Source: Haliotis cracherodii (taxonomy: Eukaryota). From it: a DNA stretch of 64,000 nt. The stretch spans positions 8,804,001 through 8,868,000 of the forward strand of contig NW_027266343.1 in NCBI RefSeq assembly GCF_022045235.1. The letters run 5' to 3'. How positions within the stretch are numbered: the first letter of the stretch is position 1; every line of letters starts with the position of its first letter. A program made the position numbers and the translations under genes. Positions 373 through 40,970 of the stretch are shown here, one piece after another. The notes beneath the pieces are model-generated. The model worked only from the letters and a program-made list of their open reading frames with translations. It did no database searches and was not told the DNA's origin.

Positions 373-1113
373 TTAAATCCTTTCACAAACTGTATTTATG
401 TAACAAGCAAACTCCACTGTGTGTATGCAATAAGAAATAAAACAATAAGACTTTTTATAAACTACCATACATTTATTACCATCTTCATACTGCGAATGAA
501 AAGAAGACATGGCTGCTTCATAAACCTTTTCATCGTGAGATCGGGTTTGTGTTCGGACGGCATTGCTGGTTGCCTGCAATGCATAATCAATGAAATAATG
601 AGCAGAAAATAGATGATTTCCTATTCCTTCTAACAAATATTGAAATATGTTGTATAAATAAAATTGAGCTATTTGCCAACGAATTTAAATATAAACCAAA
701 ACTGCCGACAGAATGTATGGACATTTTAAAGATTAAGCAAATTACATGTCCTGTTTTACTTTTGGAAACCCATCCCCTCGCTATGACACTTGACAATCAG
801 TTTTAAAAATGTAACATGATGTTTTCATGGGTTCATCCAAATCCAATAAATTCTTTAAACCCATTGTTCCCATTGGTCATGTACAAATGGAGTTTGCAGA
901 ATTAGAACAGGATGTGTTTTATGCTGCGTAATACAAGTTTATAAAGTATTAAACTATCTTTACCAAATGTACAGAAAGTCAAATAAGGCTTTGTCCAAAC
1001 TGGTCAAATGTGTTTTCGGAAGTAACCAACTGAACACTACACCTGATTGACAATACTTTGGAGCTTATATTTAGAAGACTAATTAACGTACCATGTGGGG
1101 CGTGTGAGACAAT

Positions 1114-1521
1114 TCAATATCCGTGTCCACCAAAATGGCTACCATGATGGTGTACCGAGATGCTGCTGCCGCCATATACATGACCATGACCGCCATATCC
1201 ATGTCCAAATCCACCATGCATTCCATTGCCTGCGTACACATGTGGAACATGTCTGGTGATGGTGTCGATATGGTTGCCATGGGGGACGTGGTGTACCTCA
1301 ACGTCGACGTGGTTAGCACCAAAACCAGGACTAATGCGAGCGTGACCAGATCCATGACCATAGCCATAGCCATGACCAAAGCCATGACCAAAGCCTCGAC
1401 CAACGCCATGACCAAAGCCATGACCAAAGCGAGGACCAAATCCATGGCCATAGCCGCCTCCATAAAACTGGCATGTCGCCCCGACAACCATGACTGCTAG
1501 AATAACGGCAATAGTCCTCAT
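1114..1521 (-). CDS. Secreted Gly/His-rich low-complexity protein, 135 aa (single coding exon; non-coding exon 1 at ~2275-2300)
   Basis: Signal peptide MRTIAVILAVMVVGATC|Q, then GHGF/GHGY repeats; 23 His in the 118-aa mature chain. Acceptor TTGATTTCAG ends at 1531, 9 nt before the ATG. Donor CAG|GTAAGT at 2275/2274. TATATA at ~2328-2334. Confidence 0.9.
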   Translation of the reverse strand: MRTIAVILAVMVVGATCQFYGGGYGHGFGPRFGHGFGHGVGRGFGHGFGHGYGYGHGSGHARISPGFGANHVDVEVHHVPHGNHIDTITRHVPHVYAGNGMHGGFGHGYGGHGHVYGGSSISVHHHGSHFGGHGY

Positions 1522-1719
1522 CTTATGTCTCTGAAATCAAAGAGATTTGGAATAATTTAATACGTTTAAAACAAACATGAAAAGGTCTTCAAATGTGTTT
1601 GTCCTTATACCTGGACCCTAAAACTATAAGGGTCAGGAAGAACGGGTTTAGGGACGGATTTGCGTTGATCAGGGAAGAAACCTGAATCATGTCCAGTAAT
1701 GGTGGTCTAACATATTGTA

Positions 1720-2000
1720 GGGGGTAACGGGTGGCCCAGTTGCCTTAGGCACCGCGATTTCGCTGTGCAGAGTTGCGTCCCTGGGCATGCCAGAAACCTA
1801 TGATTGTGGGTTCGAATCCCGGTTCGCCCCGATTATGTTTCTATGTTTGTCAGCGCCATACCCGTGCTCGTGGGTTTCACCGAAGTGGTATACGTCTGAG
1901 ATCTGCATCACTTCGGGCTTTCCTCCCACATTAAGTTGACACGCCGTGATATAACTGGAATACTGTTAAAAGTGTCGTTAAACCCAACTCACTCACTCAC
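1720..2000 (+). mobile_element. tRNA-headed SINE (family 1) in intron 1 of the Gly/His-rich gene
   Basis: A-box-like GGTGGCCCAGT, B-box GGTTCGAATCCC, (ACTC)n tail, TSD TAA[C/T]ATATTGT at 1708-1718 and 2001-2011. Confidence 0.85.
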
Positions 2001-2274
2001 TAATATATTGTCGATTTGAGTTCTACGTTTGACAGAATTTGGTCTGTATTGTATCACAGCAGCCTTCATGGATTTACTTTATAAGTTGTGCCCATGGGAT
2101 TTTGTCAAAGACCTGCATCAGTTCGGGCCTTTTCCCAACATACCAGCTGACACACCGTCATATAGCTGAATACTGTTATCAGCGACTTTCACTCACTCAA
2201 GAAAGTGGCAATCGTTTATGACCCGCATCGCTTATATCGTAACTGAATTACCATACTTTCAGATTGTAACTTAC

Positions 2275-2334
2275 CTGTTTACAAAGTCAAGCCTTGGAAT
2301 GCCTCCACTGCATGTCTTAGGGAAACCTATATAT
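2275..2334 (-). promoter_or_regulatory. TATA box and short non-coding first exon of the Gly/His-rich gene
   Basis: ATATATAG at 2327-2334 (minus), then CAG|GTAAGT about 55 nt downstream; predicted intron 2274-1531. TSS is estimated. Confidence 0.6.
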
Positions 2335-2955
2335 CCATCAGTTTAAGTGAGCAGGCGTATTGCACAAGTAACTAAGACGTCATGGTCCATGGTGACATTA
2401 CTCCCTGAGGTCAAATACAAGCTTAAGGCAGTGGACAATACTGACCATGATGACAAATAACCTTGGGCTAGCTAGTACAATGATAAATTGCTAATTATTA
2501 CGTTTGCCACTGCTACCTAGTGTCATCTGTCAATAAGGTAGAACATTTTGCAACTATGTATTTGCTTCCGTGAGACAGAAAATTGTAACACACACATAGA
2601 CACACACACACACACGTGCGCGTCGCTATATAAGTGCAATAATCTTGGACGCTACGTTAATCCCCATTTCATTTCTCCTCACCTTGCGTTTTGGCGTCCA
2701 AAGCAATGCTATTCGGCAGATAATCGAGACAGAATATTCTTTGGCGTTGGCGTTTTGTTATATAGAGATAGATGTTTTGCTACTGATAACTGTGGTTCAT
2801 GACTATTTACTCATTTCTCTTAATTAGATCTGAATTGACCATACATAGAAGTAATTTTACAATAAAACAGAGGAATATCTTTTTTTAGGTGCCAGTTTAC
2901 AGCATAGTACATTTGGATGTTCTAACCATAAATTCTTTACTGAACGAGTGAACTA

Positions 2956-9436: not shown

Positions 9437-10024
9437 TTAGATTCCCATGAAAGCTGGGTCATAGGCAGCAGGTCCTGCCGGGGCAACGGCAGTGGCGGCA
9501 ATAGTTGTGGGGGCAGCAGCAGAGGAGGCAGCATACGCATCGAGTTCACCAATATAACCAGGACCTGGAATGAATGAAATGGACAGATATGACAATTGAC
9601 GAATTGCTTGATTTGTTCACATGCTTCTGTATGTGTGTCTAAGTTACTGCCTGTTTTCCTGTCACATTGCACTATTATACTTACCGTAACCCTGTGAATG
9701 AATGGCACCGGTGCCCTGTGATCCTGGATGGACTAATCCCTGGTTGAGCCCTGAGCCGAGACCAAGAGGGGAAACACCCAGGCCGAGAGAGGGGATTCCA
9801 AGTCCGAGTTGTGGGATTCCAAGTCCTATATGTGGGATTCCAAGGCCGATATGGGGGTTTCCAAGTCCGAGATGTGGAATTCCAAGGCCGATATGGGGGA
9901 ATCCAGGGCCAAATGCACCGAACGGGGGAACACCGATCCCTCCGAAAGGACGGATACCAATTCCTAAACCATGTGTTGTTGTCATGGCAACAAAGCAGAC
10001 AGCGGCAACAGCAAGAAGCTTCAT
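9437..10024 (-). CDS. Secreted Gly/Pro heptad-repeat protein A1, 155 aa; complement(join(9437..9564,9685..10024))
   Basis: Signal peptide MKLLAVAAVCFVAMTTTHG; GIPHxGL repeats; phase-1 120-nt intron G|GTAAGT...TTCCAG. Exon 3 reads GPGYIGELDAYAASSAAAPTTIAATAVAPAGPAAYDPAFMGI*. TATAAA 10750-10755, exon-1 donor 10683, acceptor 10034, AATAAA 9284-9289. Confidence 0.9.
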
Positions 10025-11458
10025 TTTGTTAATCTGTGAAAATAGAGAAACGAACTTATTCCATGTATTTGACTACTGTACATGGAAATATGAGGGTCAA
10101 ACACATTCAGTATGTTACCTTCGTTTCGTTTCGTTCCGTGTACATGGCCATGCATATCTATGATACCAGAAACAATATATATGTAAACACACTATTGATA
10201 CAAGTATTATTTCATATTTTCGGTGGGTCTAAGACTTTTGTCAGAGACAAAGTATTTATTCGGTTCCTGCTTAAACAATTCTATAAAGGGAGCAGAACAG
10301 CCGACCATTTGTTTTTGTCACAGCACATTTTATTCAGGACATCCTGCATATTCAGCTGATATTTATTTTATTTTTTATTTGTTGTAAAACCTGAGTCAAG
10401 ATTATTTTGTTTCCAATCTTTCCTGGAACAAATTATTTCTGCTGCCAAAACTACCAGGTCCTTCAGTAAAGATTGTTCTTTAGAGATTGGACAATGTGGT
10501 GCTATATATAAATACATATTAATTAAATAATTATACTTGAAAAAGTCTTTGTTGTCAAATGATTTGAGAGTTAAAATGTAGGCTAATTGATGCCTAAGAT
10601 ACGTAAGTTATAGTATATCATACATAGAACTTTGCGAAAAAGAATTCACATACACATAAAAAAACTGAGACAGAAACACTTACGTTTTGGTTGAGGTCTA
10701 CCGGGACTGACTGATTCAGAAAGTGAAGTGTCCACTGCACAGTCCTTCCTTTATATTATCATGAATGCGGGGGTACAAAGCGGGTCATAAATTGTGCATG
10801 TCAACAAAATGACCAGTTGACAACACGTTATACAACGATGACTGTGTCTACCCGACAGGTGATTAATGTATGCTGTATTAGCGTGATACAGTTATGTCAT
10901 TTGACGGTAACAACAAACAGTGAATTAGATCACACACTTGATGTTTCTGACGTTCTTGCACTTGTCATTTCAGTTGCAGTATGAAACCTCAGTTTATAGA
11001 TTTAACTTGAAGAGATGAAAAGAGCGTAACATTACGTAACCTGAAGTATAGTTTATCTATGAATAATAGTTATAAGTTAAATGAAAACCATTTGACCAAT
11101 GTATTTATGTTAAATTTTATCATGACATGTTAACTGTAATGCCATACATTTTACCTTATATCAAAGTGACAAAATCCAACATGTATTACGAATATGACTT
11201 GATTCATATCCGATGGTCCGAAGATGGCATTAACGATGCAATGGCAAGGTTGGTGTTTTAGCCATGTGATTCAAGCTTTCGATTTTCCGTATGGGTATAA
11301 GGTGTGAAGTCCATTCCGGGTCTTATTTGACTTTTTTTTTAACCAAACTCACTCAAACAAACCTCACTCACACTAAGAAGCATTTACATGTTAGTCCAAT
11401 CGATTCTATTGAGCATAGTTTTTTACGCTAAATGAACTGGCTTTAAAAGAAACATATA

Positions 11459-11629
11459 CAGTAAACTATGTTTATAATGAACACGCTTAAAACGAACTGA
11501 CGGATTTAATGAACATTTTTTAGTACTTCCGTTTGTTGTACCTATGCTGTATATATGCTCATACCGAACTATGGTTATTACGAACTAAAATTAGTGATCC
11601 CTTTGAGTTCGTTAAACCAGAGTTTACTT
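11459..11629. mobile_element. MITE of the same family as 2956-3130 (duplicate at 17837-18008)
   Basis: TA-CAGTAAACT...GAGTTTACT-TA with internal TAACGAAC repeats. Confidence 0.65.
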
Positions 11630-12329
11630 TATATATGTTTACATATATGTGTTTCAAATATACACATATACATTTTGAGTGGAAAGCGGATTATTATGTG
11701 TGTGAGTTGTAAATGTTTAAATGTTACTCGATAAGAGTATATTGTTTGTATTTTTCTCCACAAGACACATTAGTTGTGTTACTGGTCTGAATACAAATGT
11801 GTTAAATGTCACACGTTCAGCTGCACAGATCATACAGGCTGTGTCGTCGCACTGTAAACTATTGTGCTTCAAGCCTTTTGACTTCGATAATAAAACATCG
11901 ATACCAATATAACGAGTCTTAATTTTTTCATGTGTATTTTGATCAACCTTGTAACATCAGGACGGTGGTTTGGTGAAGAGGTTCAAGCGGTTCTCTTGTG
12001 GGTGCAATGTTTGAAGCATTCGTAGAATCCAGAACATATTGCGGTTGACATGTTTTACCCATGGTGTCATCTCATCCCGAAGGTGTGGATCGTTGCTCAT
12101 GATATTAGTCACTAGATTGTTTGGTCCAGACTTCATTATTCACATGCTATCTCATATACCTGGACTATTGCTGGGAGTGACGTTAAACGACAAACAAATA
12201 ACGCTCACAAAAAATACATCCCCGTGCAGACCTTGATTTAGCATATCGTGTAATCATGATAATTGTCATTCATAATATTATTATTTTAAACATGTTAACC
12301 ATACTTGTGAATATAGATTTGAAAGGCAT

Positions 12330-13007
12330 TTAGAAGTGACACACACAAGGAAGAGAATACATGGATGTCGACTTCTTTATTATGAGGAACACAACGTTTC
12401 GGAGTATATGCTTACTCCTTCATCAGGTGAATGAATGCCATGAGGCAGAGAGCATATAGATTCCTCTCATGACGGGGGAAAAGGAGATAGTTTCCCTCGT
12501 GGCTGCGCCACTCGTTAAAATATCTCCTTCTCTCTCGTCACTCGATGAGAGAAACATGATATTTCATTCGACACATGAAATAGTCTCTATTTACTCAATC
12601 GATTTCACAAAAGTGATGTTCAAGGGTTCATTCATACTGCTACCCTATTTTGACGTCACAGTGCACTCAAACATAGTATGGGGTCATTCTGCAATCTAAC
12701 ATATTGTGACGTCACAGAAAGACATTGTGTGGGGCATGCGTACAGAAATACAGCAATAAGTATTGAAGTGGCAAGAAAATGTACAATACTTGTTTCAAGA
12801 ATACTAGTATTTGAGGTAATTTAATTTTGGTTTGAAAGTATTAATAAGATAACTTTCTTTCCTTTTTCTCAGTGCATCATTTTCACATTTGTAAAACGGG
12901 AACATCATAAAATTTGGTGCTTTATTCCCGGCATATTGATCAATATGTTGACTGAATTGAATACACCGGCAAGAGGGGTCCCATATGTGTTGTCGGTTGA
13001 CTCTCAC
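12330..13007 (-). mobile_element. Penelope-like element 3' fragment: GIY-YIG C-terminus plus pLTR with hammerhead motif, interrupted by another repeat (duplicate ~18710-19370)
   Basis: ...FPFYKCENDALRKRKESYLINTFKPKLN fits the R-x-x-x-E...I...P-x-L-N end of PLE GIY-YIG endonucleases. A same-strand hammerhead motif and AATAAA lie downstream. Confidence 0.7.
12390..12429 (-). ncRNA. Minimal type I hammerhead ribozyme motif
   Basis: cac-CUGAUGA-a-GGAGUA(agcaua)UACUCC-GAAAC-GUU-gug: core boxes, perfect 6-bp stem II, 3-bp stem I, loopless palindromic stem III. Confidence 0.7.
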
Positions 13008-14406
13008 TCTCTCACTCTATATACATATTGCTACATAAGGGATTTTCGTTATAGACGAATCATCAATTCCAAAGGTATGGTCTCAATCCCTATCCATAGT
13101 GGTTCAACTTCATCGGCATATAGTGTACTCTTGTTAGTCTTCTCGGTACAATCTCGGTACAATACCAACATATGATCAGTTACGTTATGTGAAATTACCA
13201 TCACCAAACCGTCACACACGAGTGGCCATTTCCATTGTCCATTGTCGATCAATTAGCCCTGACCACTAAATAACACCACCACCACAAACTGAATATATAC
13301 CAGTCATCGTTGTATAATACGTTGACAACTCATGATTTCAATCACTGGATTGTCTGGCTTAATTCGATGCCAACTATATTCGCTTATATTTATTGCTAAA
13401 GGTAAATGAGATTTTATGTTGCATCATAACCTTCTTAATGCTAGTATATATGTTGATTACTTGTAACCTCGTTGATCCATAGCGAAAGCATAGCATCATC
13501 AATAGACCATCGAGATACTGTACTCACATGCACATATGTCAATGGAAAATATTATGTTAACGTAAAGTGAAGTACAAGTATACTCGACCCGTGAACATCC
13601 GTGTTAGAACAGGTCTTCAGCAAGCCATGCTTGCCATAAAAAGTGACTATGCTTGTCGTAATAGGCGACTTACGGGATCGGATAGTCAGGCTGGCTGACT
13701 TGGTTGATGCACATCATCGTATCCCAATTGGAAGGATCGATGCTCATGATGTCAATCACTGGGTTGTCTGATCCAGACTCGATTATTTACAGACCGCTGT
13801 CATACAGCTGGAATATTGCTGAGTGTGGCGCTAAACAACAAACATACTTTTAAACAAACATCACCTCCTGCAGTATGCCTTTCTAACGGAATGCATGAAT
13901 AGTTTTAGCGGCTTGGCAATGCGATTTGTAAAATGCGATGTTGATATACTCGGGTATGCATGTTGTAGGTTCCAGGAGCTATCCACCGTCCGCTCCGCTC
14001 CTTGGTGACTCTGTCCGGGATAAGTATTTCATTCGTTTATTATTCAATCACCTAAATATTACTTTCCCATGTCGATGGGCATTTTATGATTAAAAACCAT
14101 GACTCATTCATTCCCCTAATGAAGTAGTAAACATATACTCCGAAACGTTGTGTTCCTCGTAATAAAGAAGTTGACATCCATAAATTCCCTTCCTTAAGAG
14201 TATTGTGTTAATTTATATCTTCTTTACTGACGAAAATGTATTAAATCTTGAATGTATAGAGCAAATAACTGATTACAACGCAAGAAACTACTGTTAAAAA
14301 CGGATTAGGTACTAGGTAAGGAGAGGTGAAATGGGGTTTATCGTATCTTTCAAGATTAGTGCACTTATATAACGATGTGCCGATTTTTTAGTGCATTTAG
14401 TGGATA

Positions 14407-15427
14407 TATAGAGGTTATCACGCGAGTGTGTTTGAGGATGGTAAATATCCTGCATTAGGAATAAACATTGTATTTAGCGAGCCTTGGCGAGCTAAATACA
14501 TAGTGTTTATTCGTAATACATGATATTTACCATCCCCAAACACACAAGCGTGATAACCTCTTTATCACATAATGTCAGTCTTTAATTCTGTGCTTCAAAA
14601 TCGCTTTCCCTCTCTCCCAAACATTACTGAAACATTGCGAGTTTTCCTGGAATGCGCGCATTAATATTTATGACGTCATAGTTTAAGTGATGTGTCATTC
14701 GGACATTGACAGTGGCCAATATAGTTCCAACTGAAATCTGTTTCTTATACAGTGACGAAGCAACATATACGCAAAACAACAATTGTTTTTAATTGCCTTT
14801 CGCGGCCATCCATCGGTCTGTCCGCTAGAGTAACTGCCCTTTGTCAAAGGGAAGCTACTCTAACCCTAGTCTATGAGACGTCACGGCCACGGTCAGACAT
14901 TGTTGACAGTCGGTCTGTCCTGTCATAACGTTAAGAAGTGAGTCAGATGTGCACAGAGCGACAAAACGAAACAAGGACACAATTCAAACATATTTCGGCC
15001 AAATCCAACTATTTTAATTTGTGGAGAAGTTTTCAAACCGCAGAGGTCTACTAGCACAGATATGGCTACTGATCCCGTTTGGCTAGTCCTCGTGCCCTCG
15101 CAAAATTGTTTCGAAATTTATGTCTCCAAAGTTGCCAAAACTTATAAAATGCCTTAGCTACGTCACAGTTGGACACTGATTTTCAGTATATTAGTCTGTT
15201 CTTTTGATAATGATAGCAATTATCCCTGTAGTTTATCCAGATTCCTGATGGTTAATTCTGACTCGATCGCCGAATGAGGAGGGCGACGCCATGGTTGTAT
15301 ATAAATACTGAAAGTAGTCCCTACTTGACCTTTGATATTTGCATCTCTATCCGCATATGACCCCAACGGATATCGTTTTTATCCGTTGGCTTTATCCTGC
15401 CGAGAAACCTACCAATTATATGATAAA
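14407..15427. mobile_element. ~1.0 kb non-autonomous insertion with a ~150-bp terminal hairpin (possibly Crypton-like)
   Basis: Present in the A2 unit; empty sites in A1 (~9041) and A3 (~22958). Inverted arms 14410-14478 and 14491-14561. No clear TSD. Confidence 0.75.
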
Positions 15428-15821
15428 TAGCAATATTCCAGCAATATCACGGCTGGGAATACAAGAAATGGCTTCACTCAGTGTACCCATGTGGGAAAAA
15501 GAACCTGGTTTTGTATGTGACGAGTGCTAAACCAATGGCTACCCCAACGCCCGCTTTTGTTTGTAAATCTACTCAGCATCTTGATAACCACACTTAATAA
15601 ACACGCATGTTGTACTGATAGTTTGGATAAAGAAGGAACACATGACTAAAGATCATAATAAATATATGTTTATTTTCAATATAGAACAACAGCCATCAAA
15701 ACATCACTCACGCCATTGCATCGTGTAGCATGACAACCCCAACTACAAGACGACTAACTGCAGCAGCATCTGTATTACATTTGCCAAGCGGATAGACCAC
15801 AGTGGACTTTAGGCATGTCAC

Positions 15822-16409
15822 TTAGATTCCCATGAAAGCTGGGTCATAGGCAGCAGGTCCTGCAGGGGCAACGGCAGTGGCGGCAATAGTTGTGGGGGCA
15901 GCAGCAGAGGAGACAGCATACGCATCGAGTTCACCAATATAACCAGGACCTGGAATGAATGAAATGGACAGATATGACAATTGACGAATTGCTTGATTTG
16001 TTCACATGCTTCTGTACATGTGTCTAAGTTACTGCTTGTTTTCCTGTCACATTGCACTATCATACTTACCGTAACCCTGTGAATGAATGCCACCGGTGCC
16101 CTGTGATCCTGGATGGATTAATCCCTGGTTGAGCCCTGAGCCGAGACCAAGAGGGGAAACACCCAGGCCGAGAGAGGATATTCCAAGTCCGAGTTGTGGG
16201 ATTCCAAGTCCGATATGTGGGATTCCAAGGCCGATATGGGGGTTTCCAAGTCCGAGATGTGGAATTCCAAGGCCGATATGGGGGAATCCAGGGCCAAATG
16301 CACCGAACGGGGGAACACCGATCCCTCCGAAAGGACGGATACCAATTCCAAAACCATGTGTTGTTGTCATGGCAACAAAGCAGACAGCGGCAACAGCAAG
16401 AAGCTTCAT
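15822..16409 (-). CDS. Secreted Gly/Pro heptad-repeat protein A2, 155 aa; complement(join(15822..15949,16070..16409))
   Basis: Near-identical to A1 with intact splice sites. TATAAA 17131-17136, exon-1 donor 17064, AATAAA 15669-15674. Confidence 0.9.
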
Positions 16410-18767
16410 TTTGTTAATCTGTGAAAATAGAAAAACGAACTTATTCCATGTATTTGACTACTGTACATGGAAATATGAGGGTCAAACACATTCAGTATGT
16501 TACCTTCGTTTCGTCACGTGTACATGGCCATGCATATCTATGATACCAGAAAGAATATAAATGTAAACACACTATTGATACAAGTATTATTTAATATTTT
16601 CGGTAGGCCTAAGACTTTTGTCAGAGACAAAGTATCTATTCGGTTCCTGCTTAAAACATTCTATAAAGGGAGCAGAACAGCCGACCATTTGTTTTTGTCA
16701 CAGCACATTTTATTCAGGACATCCTGCATATTCAGCTGATATTTATTTTATTTTTCATTTGTTGTAAAACCTGAGTCAAGATTATTTTGTTTCCAATCTT
16801 TCCTGGAACAAATTATTTCTGCTGCCAAAACTACCAGGTCCTCCAGTATAGATTGTTCTTTAGAGATTGGACAATGTGGTGCTATATATAAATACATATT
16901 AATTAAATAATTATACTTGAAAAAGTCTTTGTTGTCAAATGATTTGAGAGTTAAAATGTAGGCTAATTGATGCCTAAGATACGTAAGTTATAGTATATCA
17001 TACATAGAACTTTGCGAAAAAGAATTCACATACACATAAAAAAAACTGAGACAGAAACACTTACGTTTTGGTTGAGGTCTACCGGGACTGACTGATTCAG
17101 AAAGTGAAGTGTCCACTGCACAGTCCTTCCTTTATATTAACATGAATACGGGGGTACAAAGCGGGTCATAAATTGTGCATGTCTACAAAATGCCCAGTTG
17201 ACAACTCGTTATACAACGATGACTGTGTCTACCCGACAGGTAATTAATGTATGCTGTATTAGCGTGATACAGTTATGTCATTTGACGGTAACAACAAACA
17301 GTGAATTAGATCACACACTTGATGTTTCTGACGTTCTTGCACTTGTCATTTCAGTTGCAGTATGAAATCTCAGTTTATAGATTTATTTTGAAGAGATGAA
17401 AAGAGCGTAACATTACGTAACCTGAAGTATAGTTTATCTATGAATAATAGTTATAAGTTAAATGAAAACCATTTGACCAATGTATTTATGTTACATTTTA
17501 TCATGACATATTAACTGTAATGCCATACATTTTACCTTATATCAAAGTGACAAAATCCAACATGTATTACGAATATGACTTGATTCATATCCGATGGTCC
17601 GAAGATGGCATTAACGATGCAATGGCAAGGTTGGTGTTTTAGCCATATGATTCAACTTTCGATTTTCCGTAAGGGTATAAGGTGTGAAGTCCATTCCGGG
17701 TCTTATTTGACTTTTTTTTAACCAAACTCACTCAAACAAACCTCACTCACTCTAAGAAGCATTTACATGTTAGTCCAATCGATTCTATTGAGCATAGTTT
17801 TTATGCTAAATGAACTGGCTTTAAAAGAAACATATACAGTAAACTATGTTTATAATGAACACGCTTAAAACGAACTGACGGATTCAATGAACATTTTTTA
17901 GTACTTCCATTTGTTGTACCTATGCTGTATATATGCTTATAACGAACTATTGTTATTACGAACTAAAATTAGTGATCCCTTTGAGTTCGTTATAACCAGA
18001 GTTTACTTTATATATGTTTACATATATATGTTTCAAATATACACATATACATTTTGAGTGGAAAGCGGATTATTATGTGTGTGAGTTGTAAATGTTTAAA
18101 TGTTACTCGAAAAGAGTATATTGTTTGTATTTTTTTCCACAAGACACATTAGTTGTGTTACTGGTCTGAATACAAATGTGTTAAATGTCACATGTTCAGC
18201 TGCACAGATCATACAGGCTGTGTCGTCGCACTGTAAACTATTGTGCTTCAAGCCTTTTGGCTTCGATAATAAAACATCGATACCAGTATAACGAGTCTTA
18301 TTTTTTCAAGTGTATTTTGATCAACCTTGTAACATCAGGACGGTGGTTTGGTGAAGAGGTTCAAGCGGTTCCCTTGTGGGTGCAATGTTTGAAGCATTCG
18401 TAGAATCCAGAACATATTGCGGTTGACACGTTTTACCCATGGTGTCATCTCATCCCGAAGGTGTGGATCGTTGCTCATGATATTAGTTACTAGATTGTTT
18501 GGTCCAGACTTCATTATTCAAATGCTATCTCATATAACTGGACTACTGCTGGGAGTGACGTTAAACGACAAACAAATAACGCTCACAAAAAATACATCCC
18601 CGTGCAGACCTTGATTTAGCATATCGTGTAATCATGATAATTGTCATTCATAATATTATTATTTTAAACATGTTAACCATACTTGTGGATATAGATTAAA
18701 AAGGCATTTAGAAGTGACACACACAAGGAAGAGAATACATGGATGTCGACTTCTTTATTATGAGGAA

Positions 18768-18807
18768 CACAACGTTTCGGAGTATATGCTTACTCCTTCA
18801 TCAGGTG
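18768..18807 (-). ncRNA. Minimal type I hammerhead ribozyme motif (duplicate)
   Basis: Identical to 12390-12429. Confidence 0.7.
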
Positions 18808-19597
18808 AATGAATGCCATGAGGCAGAGAGCATATAGATTCCTCTCATGACGGGGGAAAAGGAGATAGTTTCCCTCGTGGCTGCGCCACTCGTTAAAATA
18901 TCTCCTTCTCTCCCGTCACTCGAAGAGAGAAACATGATATTTCATTCGACACATGAAATATTCTCTATTTACTCAATCGATTTCACATAAGTGATGTTCA
19001 AGGGTTCATTCATACTGCTACCCTATTTTGACGTCACAGTGCACTCAAACATAGTATGGGGTCATCCTGCAATCTAACATATTGTGACGTCACAGAAAGA
19101 CATTGTGTGGGGCATGCGTACAGAAATACAGCAATAAGTATTGAAGTGGCAAGAAAATGTACAATACTTGTTTAAAAAATACCAGTATTTGAGGCCATTT
19201 AATTTTGGTTTGAAAGTATTAATAAGATAACTTTCTTTCATTTTTCTCAGTGCATCATTTTCACATTTGTAAAACGGGAACATCATAAAATTTGGTGCTT
19301 TATTCCCGGCATATTGATCAATGTGTTGACTGAGTTGGATACACCGGCAAGAGGGGTCCCATATGTGTTGACTCTCACTCTCTCACTTTATATACATATT
19401 GCTACATAAGAGATTTTCGTTATAGACGAGTCATCAATTCCAAAGGTATGGTCTCAATCCCTATCCACAGTGGTTCAAATTCATCGGCATATAGTGTACT
19501 CTTGTTAGTCTTCTCGGTACAATCTCGGTACAATACCAACATATGATGAGTTACGTTATGTGAAATTACCATCACCAAACCGTCACACATGAGTGGC

Positions 19598-19770
19598 CAT
19601 TTCCATTGTCCATTGTCGATCAATTAGCCCTGACCACTAAATAACACCACCACCACAAACTGAATATATACCAGTCATCGTTGTATAATACGTTGACAAC
19701 TTTCATGTTGCGGGACATTTACAATTTATGATTGTATGTGTACTGTATCTGCGCAATTTAAACGTCCTTG
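19598..19770 (+). pseudogene. Orphan B-type promoter remnant with no TATA box or gene downstream (truncated duplicate 13230-13330)
   Basis: TCCATTGTCGATCAATTAG..AAATAACACC..CATCGTTGTATAATACGTTGACAAC..ACATTTACAATTTATGA aligns with 28335-28490. Confidence 0.6.
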
Positions 19771-21185
19771 TTTGTACAAATTATTTCTACAATTATTGTA
19801 TATTTTCATGCCACTACAATACCAACTGCTGTATTTCTGTATGTGTGGTACGTATGCCCAACACAATTTTTTGCGTCTTTCTGTGACGTAACAATATGTT
19901 AGATTGCACTGTGACGTCATACTAACAGTATAAATGAACCTTTGAACATCACTTTCGTGAAACCTGTTGAGTACATTATATAGCTGTTCTTTGGACTATG
20001 TAAACAAAAAGAAAGATCTTTTGTTATCAGCTTGCATGCATATTTAGTATTGGGAGGCATTCTGTAGAATAAAGACAATACTGGAGCAATTTGATTTGTA
20101 ATAATGCATGCAAAATGCTGTTTTCGATGCACAGATCTGAATTAGTAGACAGATAGCTTAATGGTGTCCGTTGATATTGTTTGTGTCTGTGGTTTATCTC
20201 TTTCTTTTTTCAAACGCTGACAGTGACCTAATTCGATGCTAACTCCAATCGCTTATATTATTGCCGTAAAAGGCGACTATGCATGTCGTAAGAGGCGACT
20301 TACTTGATCGGATGGTCAGGCTCGCTGACTTGGTTGATGCATGTCATCGTATCCCAATTACGTGGATCGATGCTCCTGATGTCAATCACTGGATTGTCTG
20401 ATCCAGACTCGATTATTTACAGACCGCCGTCATATATGTGTAATATTGTTTGGTCAGCGTCAAACAACAAACAAACAAAATGAATATTCACAAGTATGGT
20501 TAACATGTTAAAAAAATAATATTATGTTTAATAATTATCATGATTACGCGATGACACGATATCAAGGTCTGCACGGGGATGTAGTTATTGTGAGCGTTAT
20601 TTGTTTTTTGTTTAATGTCACTCCCAGCAATAGTACATATATATGGCGATAACATGTAACTAATCAAGTTTTGACCAGACAATCGCGTGACGGATCCACA
20701 ACTTCGGGGTGAGAACACAACGATTCACACGTGTCAACCGCAAGATGCTCTGGGTTTTACGAATGCTTCAAACATTGTACACCATAAGGAAACCGCTTGA
20801 ACCTTATCACTAAACCGCCATCCTGATGTTACAAGGTAGATAAAAATACACATATAAAGACATTGAGACTTGTTATACTAGTATCGACTTCTCTGCATCA
20901 GAATGTTTTATTATCGAAGTCAAAGGGTTTCATTTAACTTAAAACTATTATTCATAGATAAACTATACTTTAAGTGACGTAATGTTACACTCTTTTTATC
21001 TCTTCAAGTAAGGATATGAAAAGATATGAAATCTATAAACTGAGATTTTATACTGCAACTGAAATGACAAGTGCAAGAACGTCAGAAACATCGAGTGGGT
21101 GTTAATTCACTGTTCGTTGTTACCGTCAAATGGCATAACTGTATCACGCTGATACATCATACATTAATCACCTGTCGGGTAGACA

Positions 21186-21346
21186 CAGTCATCGTTGTAT
21201 AACGAGTTGTCAACTGGTCATTTTGTAGACATGCACAATTTATGACCCGCTTTGTACCCCCGCATTCATGTTAATATAAAGGAAGGACTGTGCAGTGGAC
21301 ACTTCACTTTCTGAATCAGTCAGTCCCGGTAGACCTCAACCAAAAC
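21186..21346 (+). promoter_or_regulatory. Family promoter (A3 shown): conserved upstream block, TATAAA, Inr-like TCACTT and non-coding exon 1
   Basis: CATCGTTGTATAA..GTTG[TA]CAAC..ACAATTTATGAC..TATAAA..ACTTCACTTTC is shared, with small variants, by all nine genes, whereas A and B flanks otherwise do not align by eye. Confidence 0.75.
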
Positions 21347-21969
21347 GTAAGTGTTTGTATCTCAGTTTGGTTTTGTGTATGTGAATTCTTTTTCGCAAAG
21401 CTCTATGTATGATATACTATAGGTAGATAGGTATCTTGGGCATCACACGCCTTTTTTCAATTATTATTATTTAATTGATATGTATTTATATAGAGCACCA
21501 CATTGTCCAATCTCTAAAGAACAATCTATACTGAAGGACCTGGGAGTTTGGGCGACAGAAATAATTTGTTCCAGGAAAGATTGGAAACAAAATAATCTTG
21601 ACTCAGGTTTTACAACAAATAAAAAAAATGAAATAATTGTCGGCTGAATATGCCGGTTGTCCTGAATAAAATGTGCTGTGACAAAAACAAATGGTCGGCT
21701 GTTCTGCTCCCTTTATAGATGTTTTCAAGCAGGAACCGAATACATACTTTGTCTCTGACAAAAGTCTTAGACCCACCGAAAATATTAAATAATACTTGTA
21801 TCAATAGTGTGTTTACATTTATATTCTTTCTGGTATCATAGATATGCATGGCCATGTACACGTGACGAAACGAAGGTAACATACTGAATGTGTTTGACCC
21901 TCATATTTCCATGTACAGTTGTCAAACAAATGAAATAAGTTCGTTTCTCTATTTCCACAGATTAACAAA

Positions 21970-22557
21970 ATGAAGCTTCTTGCTGTTGCCGCTGTCTGCT
22001 TTGTTGCCATGACAACAACACATGGTTTTGGAATTGGTATCCGTCCTTTCGGAGGGATCGGTGTTCCCCCATTCGGTGCATTTGGCCCTGGATTCCCCCA
22101 TATCGGCCTTGGAATTCCACATCTCGGACTTGGAATTCCACATCTCGGACTTGGAATTCCACATATCGGACTTGGAAATCCACATCTCGGACTTGGAATC
22201 CCCTCTCTCGGCCTGGGTGTTTCCCCTCTTGGTCTCGGCTCAGGGCTCAACCAGGGATTAATCCATCCAGGATCACAGGGCGCCGGTGCCATTCATTCAC
22301 AGGGTTACGGTAAGTGTAAAAGTGCAATGTGACAGGAAAACAGGCAGTAACTTAGACACATGTACAGAAGCATGTGAACAAATCAAGCAATTCGTCAATT
22401 GTCATATCTGTCCATTTCATTCATTCCAGGTTCTGGTTATATTGGTGAACTCGATGCGTATGCTGTCTCCTCTGGTGCTGCCCCCACAACTATTGCCGCC
22501 ACTGCCGTTGCCCCTGCAGGACCTGCTGCCTATGACCCAGCTTTCATGGGAATCTAA
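21970..22557 (+). CDS. Secreted Gly/Pro heptad-repeat protein A3, 155 aa; join(21970..22309,22430..22557)
   Basis: TATAAA 21275-21280, exon 1 ~21306-21346, intron 21347-21960 (GTAAGT...CCACAG), intron 22310-22429. Exon 3 reads GSGYIGELDAYAVSSGAAPTTIAATAVAPAGPAAYDPAFMGI*. AATAAA 22705-22710. Confidence 0.9.
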
Positions 22558-25500
22558 GTGACATGCCTTAAGTCCACTGTGGTCTATCCGCTTGGCAAAT
22601 GTAATACAGATGCTACTGCAGTTAGTCGTCTTGTAGTTGGGGTTGTCATGCTACACGATGCAATGGCGTGAGTGATGTTTTGATGGCTGTTGTTCTATAT
22701 TGAAAATAAACATATATTTATTATGATCTTTAGTCATGTGTTCCTTCTATATCCAAACTATCAGTACAACATGCGTGTATGTTAAATGTGGTTATCAAGA
22801 CGCTGAGTAGATCCACTAACAAAAGGGGACGTGCGGGTAGCCATTGGTTTAGCGTTCGCACGTCACGAACAAAACCAGGGTTCTATGTCCCACATGGGTA
22901 CATTGAGTGAAGCCCATTTCTTGTATTCCCAGCCGTGATATTGCTGGAATATTGCTAAATATGCACTATATGCACTTTAAAATCGGCACTAGTCCGGTCT
23001 GGTCCAGGTCACACACTCACGCACGTGCATGCACGTCGCTATATAAGTGCAATAATCTGGAAAGAGACGTTAAACCCCTTTTCACCTCTCCTCACCTAAT
23101 AGCTGATCCGTCTTTGACAGTTGCTTCTTGTGTTGTAATCTGTTATTTACTCTATACATTCAAGATTTAATACATTTTCGTTAGTAAAGAAAGATATAAA
23201 TTAACAAAAAACTCTTAAGGAAGGGAATTCATGGATGTCAACTTTATTACGAGGAACACAACGTTTCGGAGTATATGTTTACTACATCATCAGGGGAATG
23301 AATGAGTTATTTTTAATCATAAAATGCCCATCGACATGGGAAGGTAATATTTAGGTGATTGAATAATAAACGAATGAAATACTTATCTCGGGACAGAGTC
23401 GCCAAAGAGCAAGGTGGACGTGTTAAAAGCCCCTGGAACCCACATCGTGCATACCCGAGTATATCAACATCGCATTTCACACATCGCATTGCAAAGCTGC
23501 TAAAACAATTCATGCATTCCGTTGGAAAGGCATACTTTCAGAGGTGATGTTTGTTTGTTTGTTGTTTAACGCTGCACTCAGCAATATTCCAGCTAAATGA
23601 CGGCGGTCTGTAAATAATTTAGTCTGGATCAGACAATCCAGAGATTGACATCATGAGCATCGATCCACGCAATTGGGATTCGATGAAATACATCAACCAA
23701 GTCTGGCAGCCTGACCATCCGTTCCCGTAAGTCGCCTCTTACGACAAGCATAGTCGCTTTTTAAGGCAAGCGTGGCTTGCTGAAGACCTGTTCTAACACG
23801 GATGTTCACGGGTCGAGTATACTTGTACTTCACTTTACGTTAACATAATATTTTCCATTGGCATATGTGCATGTGAGTACAGTATCCCGATGGTCAATTG
23901 ATGATGCTATGCTTTAGCTATGGATCAACGAGGTTACAAGTAATCAACATATATACTAGCATTAAGAAGGTTATGATGCAACATAAAATCTCATTTACCT
24001 TTAGCAATAAATATAAGCGAATATAGTTGGCATCGAATTAAGCCAGACAGTCCAGTGATTGAAATCATGAGCATCGATCCACGCATTTGGGATTCGATGA
24101 TATCAACCAAGTCAGCCAGCCTGACAACCCGATCCCGTTAGCCGCCCTTTACGGCATGGGTGGCTGTAGACCTGTTCTACCCCGGAGGTCATGTAACATA
24201 ATGGGATCCATTTGTACAGCGTATGTGCTCCAAAGATGACTGGTGAGTGAATGAACGTTGTTTACCGATGCAGATGCAATATTCCAGATTTCCGTAAATA
24301 TTCGAATCTGGAACAGGCAAAAACACGTCGTTTTTTTGTAACCGCTATTTTGCCCTCTACGTAAGTGTTTCTTTAGATGTTGTGGTGATTGTGGTCACGG
24401 CATAAAATCAGTTGTCATAGCATGATGATAAGAACAACTGCAGAGTGTCAATACTATCACGTCGAATGTATTGAAGAAAGCTCAAACCAGTATTAACTCT
24501 CCATCGGACTCGGCGCTGAGCAAAATTGAGAACTGCAGAATTTGATGTAATATATTTGACATAAAAACATTGATTTCTCCGCATGATATCCACATACGAC
24601 GTACTCGCTCCAGTAAGTTTTGTTACGTTAAGTATATGTCACAGAGCTACTTATATTTATTATCCTAATCTGACTCCCGCAGGAGATATTGCTTGTGTGA
24701 AGGCAGACAATATCTGCTAGGAGACTGACATAAGCGTTTGTATGAGGGTTCATTCTTGACGTTTTCCAACAGTACAAGGACATGACAGTCAGCATACCGA
24801 ACACTTTGGTTAGTTTGTAGGTGACTGAGTCCAGGGCCGAGACGCCCTTTAGTTGTGACGTCGAAGTAACGTCATAACATAATCCCTTCACTTTTCGACA
24901 TTGACGTCATAAGGGAACGCGCCACATGTTCAGACTATCGGTATACTCAACACGAAACTCTTAACCAATTTACCATTTAAGCAAAATAAAGTCTTTCGTT
25001 CAACTTTGCGGTTTAAGTATATGAACAAGAAATATATTAGATATGTCACAGTTACAAACAGTAGTTATGCTGCACATGTTTTCGTCGAAGAAACGTAATG
25101 CATTGCCATATCTGTCTTGTACTTACTGAGGTAAGGTACTTGATATTGGACCATAAATAGATTCAACCTCATGGATTTTGATACCAATTATATCAACACT
25201 CGTCGATAAAAGTAGAAAGCCTCCTGCAAGACGCAGAGTTTTGGTACTATAGTTGATGTATGTTGATATGTTTTATATCAAACTCGGGTGAGATTCTCTG
25301 TGTGTAGACTAAATGGTCTTGCATCAATCATAACCTAGTTTGCAATTTTGAGAATTCACATCGGTCAGCATATTGTGCACAAATTTTGGAGGCTTCATCC
25401 GGATTGACCCATAGTTCATAGATCTCAATGTATTGATTTGATCATGCTTAATCTATGTGGACCTTTGAAATTTAATTTCGAATAAAGATGGAAGATGGAA

Positions 25501-26289
25501 AATGAAAGATTGTAAATACTCGACCCATCCAAAGTCATACTTTAATAGAAATAGTCTTGCCTTGTTTGCTTCATATATATATTTTACAGATTAAAATAAC
25601 TGCAGCAAAGAGGGTTCGGGTGATCCTGGCTCAGTCAGGTTGGTGGGCTCATCATCCGTTCAGGGTTTCATGTCCCCTCTACACGCAGCCCAGACAGCGA
25701 ATGGGACTTCTCCCAGGAAGCACTACCTCGTCGAACTCATTAAAAACTGTTCGGAGCGGGTGATCATGGTGAGTCCCAACACTGCAGCCTTCTGCATTAC
25801 TCAGATTGTCAGAAGGCCGCGGGTACACTCCCAATGTCAGTCAACAGATTGGGAGGTACCAAACCTAAGTCACCGAGAACAATGGGGAGTCGGCGCTACT
25901 TGGTGATGCAAGCCATCTGACTATGCTTTTTAAAGTATTCTGAATAAGTCATACAGTCCGTAAGAGTTGTTTCGTGTTAAACTTTATAGGTTGCATGATT
26001 AGAAAACATATTCTGCCAAAAAAGTAACATAACAATATGAACATTTAATTTTTTGTTTTTTTATTACGTGTTTGAATCGTTATCTATCGTGAAGCTGTCC
26101 GATTTTCGATCACAAACGTTGATACTACTTACTTTCGTTTATCCGACATACTCGTTAATCCGACATAATCATATGCAACCATCGATGTCGGATTAACGGG
26201 ACTTGACTGTATATGATACACGTGGTGAATTACGTGAAGCTGACAAGATTGAGTTACATACATGGTGATCACTTTAACTTTTCAGTCCA

Positions 26290-28010
26290 GTTCAGTGTAA
26301 CCTCACCCATTTTTTTAACAATGGGTATAATCTCTTTTCAGTGCTATCTGTCCTGATACTGAAATAGTTCGAGGAAGCACATTTTAAACCTCATGGAACA
26401 GAACAGTTATCTTGCCTCTTCATAAGAGTGGGAACAGAGAGGACGCAAATAGTAAGTGAGTGAGTGAGTTGGGTTTTACGCCGCTTTTAACAGTATTCCA
26501 GTTATATCACGGCGTGTCAGCTTAATGTGGGAGGAAAGCCCGAAGTGATGCAGGTCTCAGACGTTTACCACTTCGGTGAAACCCACGAGCACGGGTATTG
26601 TGCTGACAACCCTAGAAACATAATTGGGGCGAACCGGGATTCGAACCCACAATCATAGGTTTCTGGCGTGCCCAAGGGACGCAACTCTGCATAGCAAATC
26701 GCGACGCCTTAGACGACTGGTCCACCCGTGCCCCCTAGGAGGCAAATAATTATAGTGGCATGACACTGTGAAGTGTGCTTCGTAAATTATACATTTATTC
26801 TTATTGAATGACTTGTGCCCTGGTCAAATGCATATGATTAAACTGAAGGATCCCAGGGTAGTTTTCGCAAACGTTATAGCCCCGTTGATAATATGTATAT
26901 TTTGCAAGCAATTATCAACAGTATTTATCCACGAGGTGGAAAAAATGTATGCTGTGTTTGTTGATTTTCAAAAGACTTTGGTTTTGTAAATAGTTCCAAA
27001 TTATGAGGTGTTCTAAAGAATAGAGGTGTTTCGCACGGCAGGAGTATTGTTGTGCGGCGTCAGGCAAAACATATTCACTTTTTTTTATGCAAATTTTGTG
27101 AATGGCGAGTGCTACCGGTTGAGCAGGATATGCTTACCCTTTTCGCGAACACCTGGTGTCATCACTGATTTTCAGTGGTCAATTTTGGTATAGTTTACAC
27201 AGCTGTTTTGCCCTTTACGCCAAATGGAATCTTTTTCGGCAGATAATCTAGACCTTTGTATTATCCTGCATTGACCATTTATATTTCAAAGATGTTAAAT
27301 GCCTTGCAATTAGTTTAAGACTCCTTGAAAGGATGTGTAAGATAATAATAATCTTCTTTCAGATGTTTTTGAATGTCCACTGTGTGTGAGACAAGGCTGC
27401 GTATTGAGCCCGTGTTTGTCTTCCATGTTTATAAATGGTTAGCTCATTCTGTTAAATCCTCTTTTTTGCATGGTATACACCTTTATCCTGACTCAGTCCA
27501 ACTGTTTCTCTTTCCCTTGTGTGACTCTGTATATGGTTCCCAAGGCCATATCAATGCACAAGGACAGTTTTGTATTGATTACCATTGAACTGTACATCTT
27601 GTAAATGATTTTTTTTAAAGTGTGACTTTTTTAAATAGGGATATTTTATCTAAACACGAACAGTGGACTCACAGAGGTTCGAATATTGAAAATATTCCAT
27701 ATTACAATATATTTCAGACATTTCGAAGACATTGACATGGTCGAATCATAAAATAAATGCGTCACTTCAAACCAATAAAGTCGTTAATGTTATATAATTG
27801 AGTCACTGTTTATTAAAAAATCTATCACATTAGGTCTTTGAAAGGCACTTTTAAGTTGAAATAACATGAATACATGACATTGTTTATGGATGGTTTAAGC
27901 TGTCTAATAAATGGGATGCTACAAATGCAAATGCATGCTACAAATGCGTGAAGGGTTTTTGCAGGTTTCGGCTATGTATGGTAGCAACAATTTAAACATA
28001 TTACTTGAGC
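26290..28010 (+). mobile_element. Decayed LINE RT fragment upstream of B1, interrupted by a SINE and other repeats
   Basis: ILPLHKSGNREDA[SINE]NNYSGMTL and KMYAVFVDFQK; homologous to, but clearly diverged from, the B-spacer LINE relic. Confidence 0.65.
26455..26735 (-). mobile_element. SINE family 1, full length, inserted into a LINE relic
   Basis: Reverse complement of 1720-2000; TSD AGGA[C/G]GCAAATA on both sides. Confidence 0.85.
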
Positions 28011-28407
28011 TTTACCTCAGTACTTGTACAGCAATATACAGTCAAGACTGACGCGATGTACTCCTCCTAAAAGCGTACACTTTAAACAATCCGTTTGCTC
28101 GGAATTATACCTTAAAGTTATAACAGTTTAAACTTTTTTTTTAGCCCTGGCTCATTTTGAATGTCGTTCACACCAATTAGAAATAAAAAAAACAGGAAGG
28201 TATGTTCAGCAACCAAGAGAAATAACATGTCTTACCCTCTCTTTCAAATTTGACATATTTTTATATGCGTAATGTGCTGATGGACTCCTCACATTTCTTG
28301 AATAAACTTCTGTAAGGAATGACATAATTTACTGTCCATTGTTGTCGTCGACCAATAAGTCCAGATCAATAAATAACAACGCCGACACACATTTAACATA
28401 GACCGGC

Positions 28408-28582
28408 CATCGTTGTGTAATACGTTGACAACCCGTCATGGTGCAGACACATTTACAATTGATGACCGTAAGTGGACCCGTGCATTTAACCGTCTGTCTT
28501 ACTATAAAAGGTTGACGTTTTGGTACAGACTTCACTTTCCGATTCGGACTCTCCTGGCAAACCTATTCTGATCTGTAGAAAA
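28408..28582 (+). promoter_or_regulatory. Family promoter and non-coding exon 1 of B1 (repeated at ~34624, 41125, 47525, 54484, 61291)
   Basis: Same upstream block, TATAAAA, ACTTCACTTTC about 27 nt downstream, donor AA|GTAAGT. Confidence 0.75.
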
Positions 28583-32719: not shown

Positions 32720-32999
32720 AACCAAAACAGTGTATCTGTAGCGGTAATAGTAACTGGTACATTAATACACTTCATAACATTTCGACATTCATTTTTGTAT
32801 GAGTTTTATGCAGAATGTACACAGACACCTTTCTGTATCTGTGTATACATAATACAAATTTAGAAAAACAACTAAACATACAGTTTGACTCTTGGTATGT
32901 ATTTTCATTATGACCCAAGAAATAAGAATAATATCTGGATAGTGTATGATGCACATATTGAGTAAAGCTGATAACATTGAATGACATAAATGGGTTGTC

Positions 33000-40932: not shown

Positions 40933-40970
<38 letters not shown>

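What the first reader, a model, noticed from the sequence alone, without database searches (positions are those of the whole stretch)
1114..1521. Gly/His-rich secreted protein at the edge of the cluster: possible partner component
Seen: GHGF/GHGY repeats, an internal duplication NHVDVEVHHVPH / NHIDTITRHVPH with beta-strand-like alternation, ~19% His, no Cys or Lys in the mature chain, and an N-terminal Gln after the signal peptide. It shares the short non-coding exon 1 layout with the neighbouring family. Known: squid-beak His-rich proteins (GHGxY motifs, pH-triggered coacervation) and Nereis jaw Nvjp-1 (Gly/His, Zn-hardened) have this composition, as do some Gly/His antifungal peptides. Inference: a metal-binding or cross-linkable component co-expressed with the heptad proteins in one sclerotised material.
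Basis: partly seen in the sequence, partly recalled or inferred. Interest (0 to 1): 0.7.

Follow-up and report, generated by a model that had tools for sequence, protein, structure and literature searches.

The report
Abalone histidine-rich hairpin coat protein
An abalone carries a spliced, unnamed gene for a small glycine- and histidine-rich protein that is predicted to be secreted and to fold a central hairpin; it sits inside a run of 38 similar short genes beside a peroxidase gene and likely helps build a tough, unmineralised coating such as the shell's outer skin, though its tissue and chemistry are untested.

Summary
The gene is real. The 135-aa ORF and its composition are confirmed. Exon 1 is spliced on in contigs of a related-species run. 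The host is Haliotis cracherodii. (1) It is not at a cluster edge: it is one of three paralogues inside a ~250-kb complex of 38 short, predicted secreted genes, with a haem peroxidase gene 10 kb beyond the left end. (2) The 'internal duplication' is the conserved core of the three paralogues and is predicted to be a beta-hairpin. (3) It has no squid GHGxY motif; its motifs are nearer Nereis Nvjp-1. Partnership with the A/B genes has indirect support: shared gene layout, TGAC-rich promoters, and co-presence in 2 of 3 holder runs laid. Calculated charge falls from +21 at pH 5.5 to about 0 at pH 8.1. Best reading: a pH-switched, peroxidase-cured structural protein, probably of the periostracum. 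Tissue, metal binding and condensation are untested. The scan noted similar Gly-rich arrays elsewhere in this genome.

The parts
2334..2533 (-). Proximal promoter with seven TGAC/GTCA words (at 2379, 2393, 2410, 2442, 2451, 2522, 2529)
   Evidence: background 1.94 +/- 1.48 per 200 nt; function inferred
2328..2333 (-). TATA-like box
   Evidence: sequence; inferred from its position above exon 1
2274..2304 (-). Exon 1, non-coding (5' end approximate)
   Evidence: joint 1529-2274 in one contig of X4, 31 nt on the short side
1530..2273 (-). Intron 1 (744 nt), holding a SINE-like repeat at about 1756-2005
   Evidence: 69 hits of 100 nt or more in the 444 kb examined
1471..1521 (-). Predicted signal peptide, residues 1-17
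   Evidence: hydrophobicity, conserved in the paralogues; cleavage site inferred
1336..1470 (-). N-terminal Gly/His/aromatic arm, residues 18-62 (GHGF/GHGY units; one unit fewer in run X13)
   Evidence: 12-nt in-frame gap at 1393; pLDDT 35-40
1222..1335 (-). Conserved core, residues 63-100; two related halves predicted as the strands of one beta-hairpin (70-81, 84-95)
1114..1221 (-). C-terminal Gly/His arm, residues 101-135, ending in Tyr, and stop codon
574..1091 (-). Intron 2 (518 nt), starting 22 nt after the stop codon
   Evidence: contigs of X1, X4 and X13 end at 1091; the 22-nt loose end of X4 matches window 551-572 at 21 of 22; GT/AG ends
455..573 (-). Exon 3, 3' UTR, with AATAAA at 472-477 (3' end approximate)
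9662..62364 (.). Nine neighbouring A/B genes in the window (3 A, 6 B), part of the same 38-gene complex (G000:C80:8746972-8998295); paralogues GH2 (C80:8796062-8796802) and GH3 (C80:8785620-8786024) lie left of the window

Best explanation
The gene encodes a spliced Gly/His-rich protein with a predicted signal peptide and a predicted central beta-hairpin, which is likely one building block of a tough unmineralised secreted material, most likely the periostracum, made together with the neighbouring A/B proteins. Shown: gene structure, splicing in related species, composition, three paralogues with a conserved core, the 38-gene complex and the flanking peroxidase gene. Calculated: net charge +21 at pH 5.5 and +0.5 at pH 8.1. 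Inferred mechanism: the protein stays soluble as a polycation in acidic secretory granules. On release into seawater its histidines lose their charge and the aromatic arms condense with the weakly charged, hydrophobic A/B proteins. The hairpins then stack into small beta-sheet domains. A secreted haem peroxidase cures the material through Gly-Tyr-Gly tyrosines. His-Zn/Cu coordination is a possible extra cross-link.
For: Composition and GYGHG/GYGGH motifs like Nvjp-1, which turns beta-rich at seawater pH. Core conserved while the arms drift: 15 invariant columns of 44; among 10 listed coding differences in related-species contigs, the 4 replaced codons all lie in the arms and become Gly. Hairpin predicted in two AlphaFold runs, pLDDT 70-90 over the strands. 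38 short predicted secreted genes in 251 kb, some in arrays of 11 and 16 near-identical copies. TGAC/GTCA is the top 4-mer in five family promoters, family-wise P about 0.018; all 27 of 110 TATA-plus-donor sites with 5 or more such words lie 460-950 nt above a cluster ATG, and 0 of 27 sites outside the cluster reach 5. GH1, A and B coding contigs occur together in X4 and X13. A peroxidase gene with His/Arg motifs in place lies 10 kb from the cluster end; 2039 of 371,337 random placements did as well. 4 of 8 Tyr are in GYG, the context that PMC6007483 names as a peroxidase substrate in the pond-snail mantle edge.
Against: No tissue is known. No GHGxY motif, the tested driver of squid-protein coacervation. 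The contig holds at least 59 peroxidase loci, and the 13-kb threshold was chosen after seeing the gap. The promoter words were first seen by eye, the promoters may be homologous, tandem copies are not independent, and the candidate GH3 promoter has only 1 TGAC. The hairpin rests on a 3-sequence alignment with pTM 0.19-0.32. His content and charge switch are weaker in GH3 (+21 to +10). Small cationic Gly/His-rich secreted peptides are also antimicrobial (recalled; listing).
Confidence: 0.55

Rival explanations
1. Same chemistry, different organ: a metal-hardened or sclerotised component of the chitinous jaws, radula or larval operculum.
For: His-rich Gly proteins of this composition are best known from feeding structures: Nereis and Glycera jaws and squid beak. 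The motifs were not found in a nacre/prismatic shell proteome.
Against: No chitin-binding family was found in the protein or among 100 flanking ORFs scanned of 160 listed (short exons are missed). His 19.5% is below Nvjp-1 (27%) and Glycera MTP (40%). Asp+Glu is 2.5% against 15.5% in Nvjp-1.
Confidence: 0.17
2. A Gly/His-rich antimicrobial or metal-scavenging peptide of mucus or haemolymph, linked to the A/B genes only by descent.
For: 12 kDa, cysteine-free, cationic in acid, likely blocked N-terminal Gln. GH3 stays cationic at pH 8.1.
Against: GH1 is nearly neutral at seawater pH. It shares promoter words and runs with neutral, hydrophobic A/B proteins that do not look like antimicrobial peptides. 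The conserved part is a His/Val/Thr hairpin, not a cationic amphipathic stretch.
Confidence: 0.12
3. A component of pedal or epithelial mucus or adhesive gel, stiffened by metals and peroxidase but not forming a hard material.
For: Secreted low-complexity proteins in high copy number beside a peroxidase gene.
Against: Little Ser/Thr (6.8%) for mucin-type glycosylation and no lectin or vWA domain.
Confidence: 0.09
4. A matrix protein of the mineralised shell layers, like shematrins or Has-tsfgr1.
For: 17-residue signal, Gly-rich chain and C-terminal Tyr as in Has-tsfgr1; GH3 ends in a basic tail with Tyr.
Against: DTITR, VPHVY, TTIAAT, GLGIP and GHGYG occur in 0 of 27 supplementary files of the H. 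laevigata nacre and prism proteome. This is an exact-word search in another species, on adult, mostly bleached shells. Few acidic residues.
Confidence: 0.07

Closest known systems
Nereis virens jaw protein Nvjp-1 (PMC9999432 section 38)
   Same: Gly 32 vs 36%, Tyr 6.8 vs 7.3%; GYGHG (2) and GYGGH (1) motifs; a His-rich stretch poor in Gly; pH-dependent beta-structure is plausible.
   Different: 12 kDa vs 32-40 kDa; His 19.5 vs 27%; Asp+Glu 2.5 vs 15.5%; no DYG motif; no sequence hit to it; Zn binding untested.
Squid histidine-rich beak proteins DgHBP-1/-2/-3 (PMC6884462, PMC9999432)
   Same: Gly-His-Gly-aromatic repeats; His is the main charged residue, giving a calculated acid-to-seawater charge switch.
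   Different: Tetrapeptide GHGF/GHGY, 0 GHGxY, 0 GAGFA; repeats on both sides of a conserved core, no Ala-rich N-terminal domain; no chitin-binding partner seen.
Suckerins (PMC9999432)
   Same: Block design: a His/Thr/Val beta-prone module (12 residues between Pro80 and Pro93) with amorphous Gly/aromatic blocks; A proteins carry a Pro-bounded Ala/Thr block.
   Different: One core, not 3-13 repeats; the core is not Ala-rich; Pro80 is not kept in GH2 or GH3; the AATAV match in A proteins was noticed after the fact and is lost in 1 of 3 tested.
Lymnaea Lstag-sfc-6/-7/-8 with peroxidase Lstag-sfc-5; Has-tsfgr1 and shematrins (PMC6007483, PMC2034539)
   Same: Short secreted Gly-rich gastropod proteins with Gly-flanked Tyr, proposed as peroxidase substrates at the mantle edge.
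   Different: Those are Gly/Tyr/Leu/Asn-rich, not His-rich; no GGYGLGL repeat here; the passages read report no hairpin core or genomic linkage to the peroxidase.
RefSeq XP_071089108.1, uncharacterized protein, Haliotis cracherodii
   Same: Holds both paralogues GH2 and GH3 and their cores.
   Different: It is a fused model of two genes; GH1 itself was not found in the collection.

Membership tests
Squid HBPs | At least two GHGxY pentapeptides with spacer, or four in tandem | tested here: not met
   0 GHGxY; rule from PMC6884462
Squid HBPs | GAGFA repeats, or Ala/His N-terminal domain plus repetitive C-terminal domain | tested here: not met
   0 GAGFA, Ala 2.5%
Squid HBPs | pH-triggered coacervation | not testable with these tools
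   only the charge switch was calculated
Nvjp-1 type jaw proteins | High Gly and His with GYGHG/GYGGH motifs | tested here: met
   Gly 32%, His 19.5%, 2 GYGHG, 1 GYGGH
Nvjp-1 type jaw proteins | 32-40 kDa, Asp+Glu about 15%, DYG motifs | tested here: not met
   12.2 kDa, 2.5% acidic, 0 DYG
Nvjp-1 type jaw proteins | Sequence homology | tested here: inconclusive
   no hit; whether Nvjp-1 is in those libraries was not checked
Nvjp-1 type jaw proteins | Zn-induced fibrils; jaw location | not testable with these tools
   needs bench work
Suckerins | [Pro-M1-Pro-M2]n with n = 3-13 | tested here: not met
   4 Pro in all, one core; definition
Suckerins | Pro-bounded 12-13 residue His/Thr/Ala module | tested here: inconclusive
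   12 residues between Pro80 and Pro93, His/Thr-rich but Ala-free; Pro80 not conserved
Shematrin / Has-tsfgr1 type | Signal peptide, Gly-rich repeats, C-terminal Tyr | tested here: met
Shematrin / Has-tsfgr1 type | GGYGLGL repeats | tested here: not met
   no Leu in the mature chain
Shematrin / Has-tsfgr1 type | Mantle-edge expression or presence in shell | tested here: inconclusive
   motifs absent from the H. laevigata proteome files; tissue of the holder runs unknown
Gly/His-rich antimicrobial peptides | Haemocyte or infection-induced expression and killing activity | not testable with these tools
   only composition and charge examined

The most novel reading that the evidence does not exclude
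The 250-kb locus is a co-regulated gene complex for one undescribed abalone biomaterial, comparable to insect chorion clusters: a pH-switched His-hairpin protein, amplified elastin-like and Tyr-rich partners and their cross-linking peroxidase lie side by side under a shared TGAC promoter code, and the hairpin is a self-stacking, metal-binding beta-module that arose independently of squid and worm proteins.
Probability: 0.25. Interest if true: 0.75.

Novelty: new variant of a known kind. Interest (0 to 1): 0.5.

Why it matters
Periostracum and other tanned gastropod materials resist proteomics because they are cross-linked, so their proteins are poorly known. This locus gives a named parts list with an enzyme candidate and promoter words, which makes the question directly testable by in situ hybridisation and recombinant assays. 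A 12-kDa protein with a sharp acid-to-seawater charge switch and one short beta-module would also be a simple model for seawater-cured materials. On its own the gene is one more Gly/His-rich mollusc protein; the complex carries most of the interest.

Tried and rejected
Pfam: 0 families at E up to 1 for GH1. Whole-protein search, 74-237 aa only: 3 hits, all low-complexity or tiny matches to bacterial proteins; core-region search: no candidate; longer and shorter lengths were not searched with that tool. Profile search of 1.84 billion representatives: 3 hits, of which P0005 (fly futsch-like, 17 short stretches) and P0006 (kinase with repeats) were rejected as repeat-summed artefacts. PDB sequence search: one UreE hit at E 0.71 over 12 positions, rejected. 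Foldseek: 0 of 14 rows at E 0.001 or better; VIA wide: 1 chain at Z 2.2; Atlas: no feature hit, all TM under 0.5. These blanks do not show a new fold. The DNA hit on contig C14 is an unrelated Gly/Tyr/Cys repeat without the core. No holder run is on record as RNA; splicing is read from the joints. Run X1 holds GH1 contigs at low depth but has no cover on the A or B coding bins, and X17 (own species label) covers none of the three; contigs drop rare transcripts, so neither blank is counted as evidence. Contig depths were not used to rank genes. The position of a tsfgr1-like gene in this genome was not determined. The peroxidase promoter could not be placed. Supplements of PMC1676022 (H. asinina mantle ESTs) could not be read and may bear on mantle expression. 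Paper searches returned no listing that names this gene or cluster; the full-text motif search gave 6 unrelated papers.

Full report
Observation. The ORF at 1521-1114 (minus strand) gives 135 aa; I call it GH1. The mature chain from Gln18 has 118 residues: Gly 32.2%, His 19.5%, Phe 7.6%, Val 7.6%, Tyr 6.8%, and no Cys, Lys, Leu or Trp. There are three GHGF, three GHGY and no GHGxY. The signal peptide is inferred from hydrophobicity and from the A-x-C-Q kept in all paralogues. The internal duplication is beyond chance at the protein level (score 47, 0 of 5000 shuffles of the core) but weak in DNA, 17 of 36 nt. The halves share 7 of 13 residues in GH1, 4 in GH2 and 1 in GH3, while GH3's first half shares 6 with GH1's second. 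I read this as an old duplication.

Gene structure and expression. Sixteen runs of 6 studies hold part of the stretch, none on record as RNA. I laid 4 of the 19 listed. X4 joins 1529 to 2274, confirming exon 1. Contigs of X1, X4 and X13 all end at 1091, and the loose end in X4 matches window 551-572 at 21 of 22 nt. So a second intron of 518 nt starts 22 nt after the stop. These three runs carry other species labels and differ by about 4-5% in sequence. Of the differences shown (40 of 78 rows), 10 fall in the coding region and touch 9 codons: 5 silent and 4 replaced, all 4 in the arms and all to Gly; the only one in the core is silent (codon 128 combined by hand). X13 lacks one 12-nt repeat unit.

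Host and family. A core profile found one true hit among 1.84 billion representatives, RefSeq XP_071089108.1 of Haliotis cracherodii, on a contig of the same length as G000:C80. That model fuses the two left-hand paralogues GH2 and GH3. GH1's exact sequence is not in the collection. The core matches 3 places in the genome, all within 20 kb, with 15 invariant columns of 44. AlphaFold gives a beta-hairpin at residues 70-81 and 84-95 in the whole chain and in the core alone, pLDDT 70-90 over the strands, arms under 50. The alignment had 3 sequences and pTM was 0.19 and 0.32, so this is a local prediction only. No family or fold match was found.

Surroundings. In 444 kb (200 kb left, the window, 180 kb right), 38 short ORFs with signal-like starts lie between C80:8746972 and 8998295: 1 X, 2 Tyr/Asp-rich Y, 3 GH, 3 A, 11 B, 16 C, 1 D, 1 E (my labels; five other ORFs in those lists, without the family pattern, were dropped). 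GH1 is therefore inside the complex. Most families have a splice acceptor 8-19 nt before the ATG and a predicted donor near the stop, in phase 1 in Y, GH2, GH1, A, B, D and E. The A intron is seen in X4 and X13 and my spliced A1 model equals RefSeq P0007. Signal-peptide DNA of GH3 resembles 7 of 8 other families at 31 or fewer of 5000 shuffles; GH1 does so only weakly, 83-1355 of 5000. Positional structure of signal peptides inflates such tests, so common ancestry of the whole complex is likely but not shown. A/B relatives are annotated in H. rufescens, all on one 43.8-Mb scaffold, and in H. asinina, under automatic names. Linkage of GH1 to them in those species could not be tested.

Co-regulation. 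TGAC/GTCA occurs 7, 6, 8, 4, 5 and 7 times in the 200 nt above the TATA box of GH1, GH2, A1, B0, C1 and Y1, against 1.94 +/- 1.48 in 895 flanking windows. It is the top 4-mer, family-wise P about 0.018. Of 110 TATA-plus-donor sites, the 27 with 5 or more words all lie above cluster genes; 0 of 27 sites outside the cluster reach 5. These represent only three or four lineages, the controls are not known promoters, and GH3's candidate promoter has 1. On the same four runs, A and B coding bins are covered in X4 and X13, which also hold GH1; X1 holds GH1 at low depth without A/B cover; X17 holds none. Co-presence in 2 of 3 holder runs is consistent with co-expression and does not prove it. The tissue is unknown.

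Peroxidase. A haem peroxidase gene (PF03098, E 1.5e-49) spans about C80:8724614-8736894, 10 kb from the last cluster gene and 68 kb from GH1. It has a signal-like start, WGQFLDHD, GDHRVNE and AFRMGHS motifs and TSP1-like repeats (the roles of the distal His and Arg and the TSP1 label are recalled, the proximal His aligns to myeloperoxidase). The contig has at least 59 peroxidase loci (a lower bound); a random 252-kb interval has one within 13 kb in 2039 of 371,337 placements (threshold set after the fact). PMC6007483 (passages) places a PF03098 peroxidase in the periostracal zones of Lymnaea next to Gly-rich proteins with Gly-flanked Tyr, proposed as its substrates. GH1 has 4 of 8 Tyr in GYG, and Y1 has 13 Tyr.

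Mechanism. With His pKa 6.5, mature GH1 carries +21 at pH 5.5, +11.5 at 6.5 and +0.5 at 8.1; A and B are weakly charged throughout. I infer soluble storage in acidic granules, condensation in seawater, stacking of the hairpins, and peroxidase curing, with optional His-metal links. Each of these steps is inferred by analogy. I put 0.55 on this with the periostracum as the likeliest site, 0.17 on jaw/radula, 0.12 on antimicrobial, 0.09 on mucus and 0.07 on mineralised shell matrix. Five motifs of GH1 and A/B occur in 0 of 27 supplementary files of the H. laevigata nacre/prism proteome (PMC6003135; supplements searched; passages).

Comparison. It works like Nvjp-1, squid HBPs and suckerins (PMC9999432: passages and section 38; PMC6884462: passages) but fails a defining test for each. 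It shares signal length and terminal Tyr with Has-tsfgr1 (PMC2034539: passages) but not its repeat. PMC4944945 and PMC1676022 (passages) describe other abalone Gly-rich proteins; the supplements of the latter were unreadable. Other papers were seen as search listings only. Searches gave no listing that names this gene or cluster; subscription papers are not covered. Earlier notes of this scan describe other Gly-rich and Gly-His-Gly arrays in this genome, so such arrays recur in abalone; none was listed near this place or by this sequence.

Verdict. A real, unannotated gene of a small abalone family with a conserved predicted hairpin, set in a large gene complex beside a peroxidase. New variant of a known kind; interest 0.5.

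Noticed in passing
window 21970-22550, 9662-10024 and all A/B genes: A/B proteins are longer than their ORFs: a third coding exon adds an acidic linker and a Pro-bounded Ala/Thr block ending near YDP. Seen as a joint in X4 and X13 and in RefSeq; conserved in H. asinina.
   Followed up: partly
G000:C80:8785620-8796802 (L005, L006): RefSeq model XP_071089108.1 fuses two separate genes, GH2 and GH3, 10 kb apart; each has its own signal peptide.
   Followed up: yes
G000:C80:8918352-8986250 (L030-L036): Sixteen near-identical Pro/Phe/Gly/His-rich short genes at a period of about 4.4 kb.
   Followed up: no
G000:C80:8724614-8736894 (L011, L012): Haem peroxidase with TSP1-like C-terminal repeats and a DPI-repeat insert; contig C80 holds at least 59 peroxidase loci in several arrays.
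   Followed up: partly
L038-L039 (C80 about 9.003-9.017 Mb): Cytochrome P450 exons flank the complex on the right; repeated PAN-domain exons lie further left in L017, L022, L024.
   Followed up: no
L028 (C80:8901-8907 kb): LINE-like reverse transcriptase pieces and a Tc1-like transposase ORF lie between the B and C arrays.
   Followed up: no
window 1092-1113 and 573-530: Read through the stop codon, the spliced 3' UTR continues in frame for 21 codons starting with a His-Pro-His-Gly-Asn-like stretch that echoes the core, and intron 2 keeps phase 1 as in GH2; the stop may have moved upstream of an ancestral coding junction.
   Followed up: no
G000:C14:1838046-1838300 (L003:1322-1642): A Gly/Tyr/Cys-rich repeat frame resembling keratin-associated protein composition, without an evident signal peptide in that frame.
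   Followed up: no
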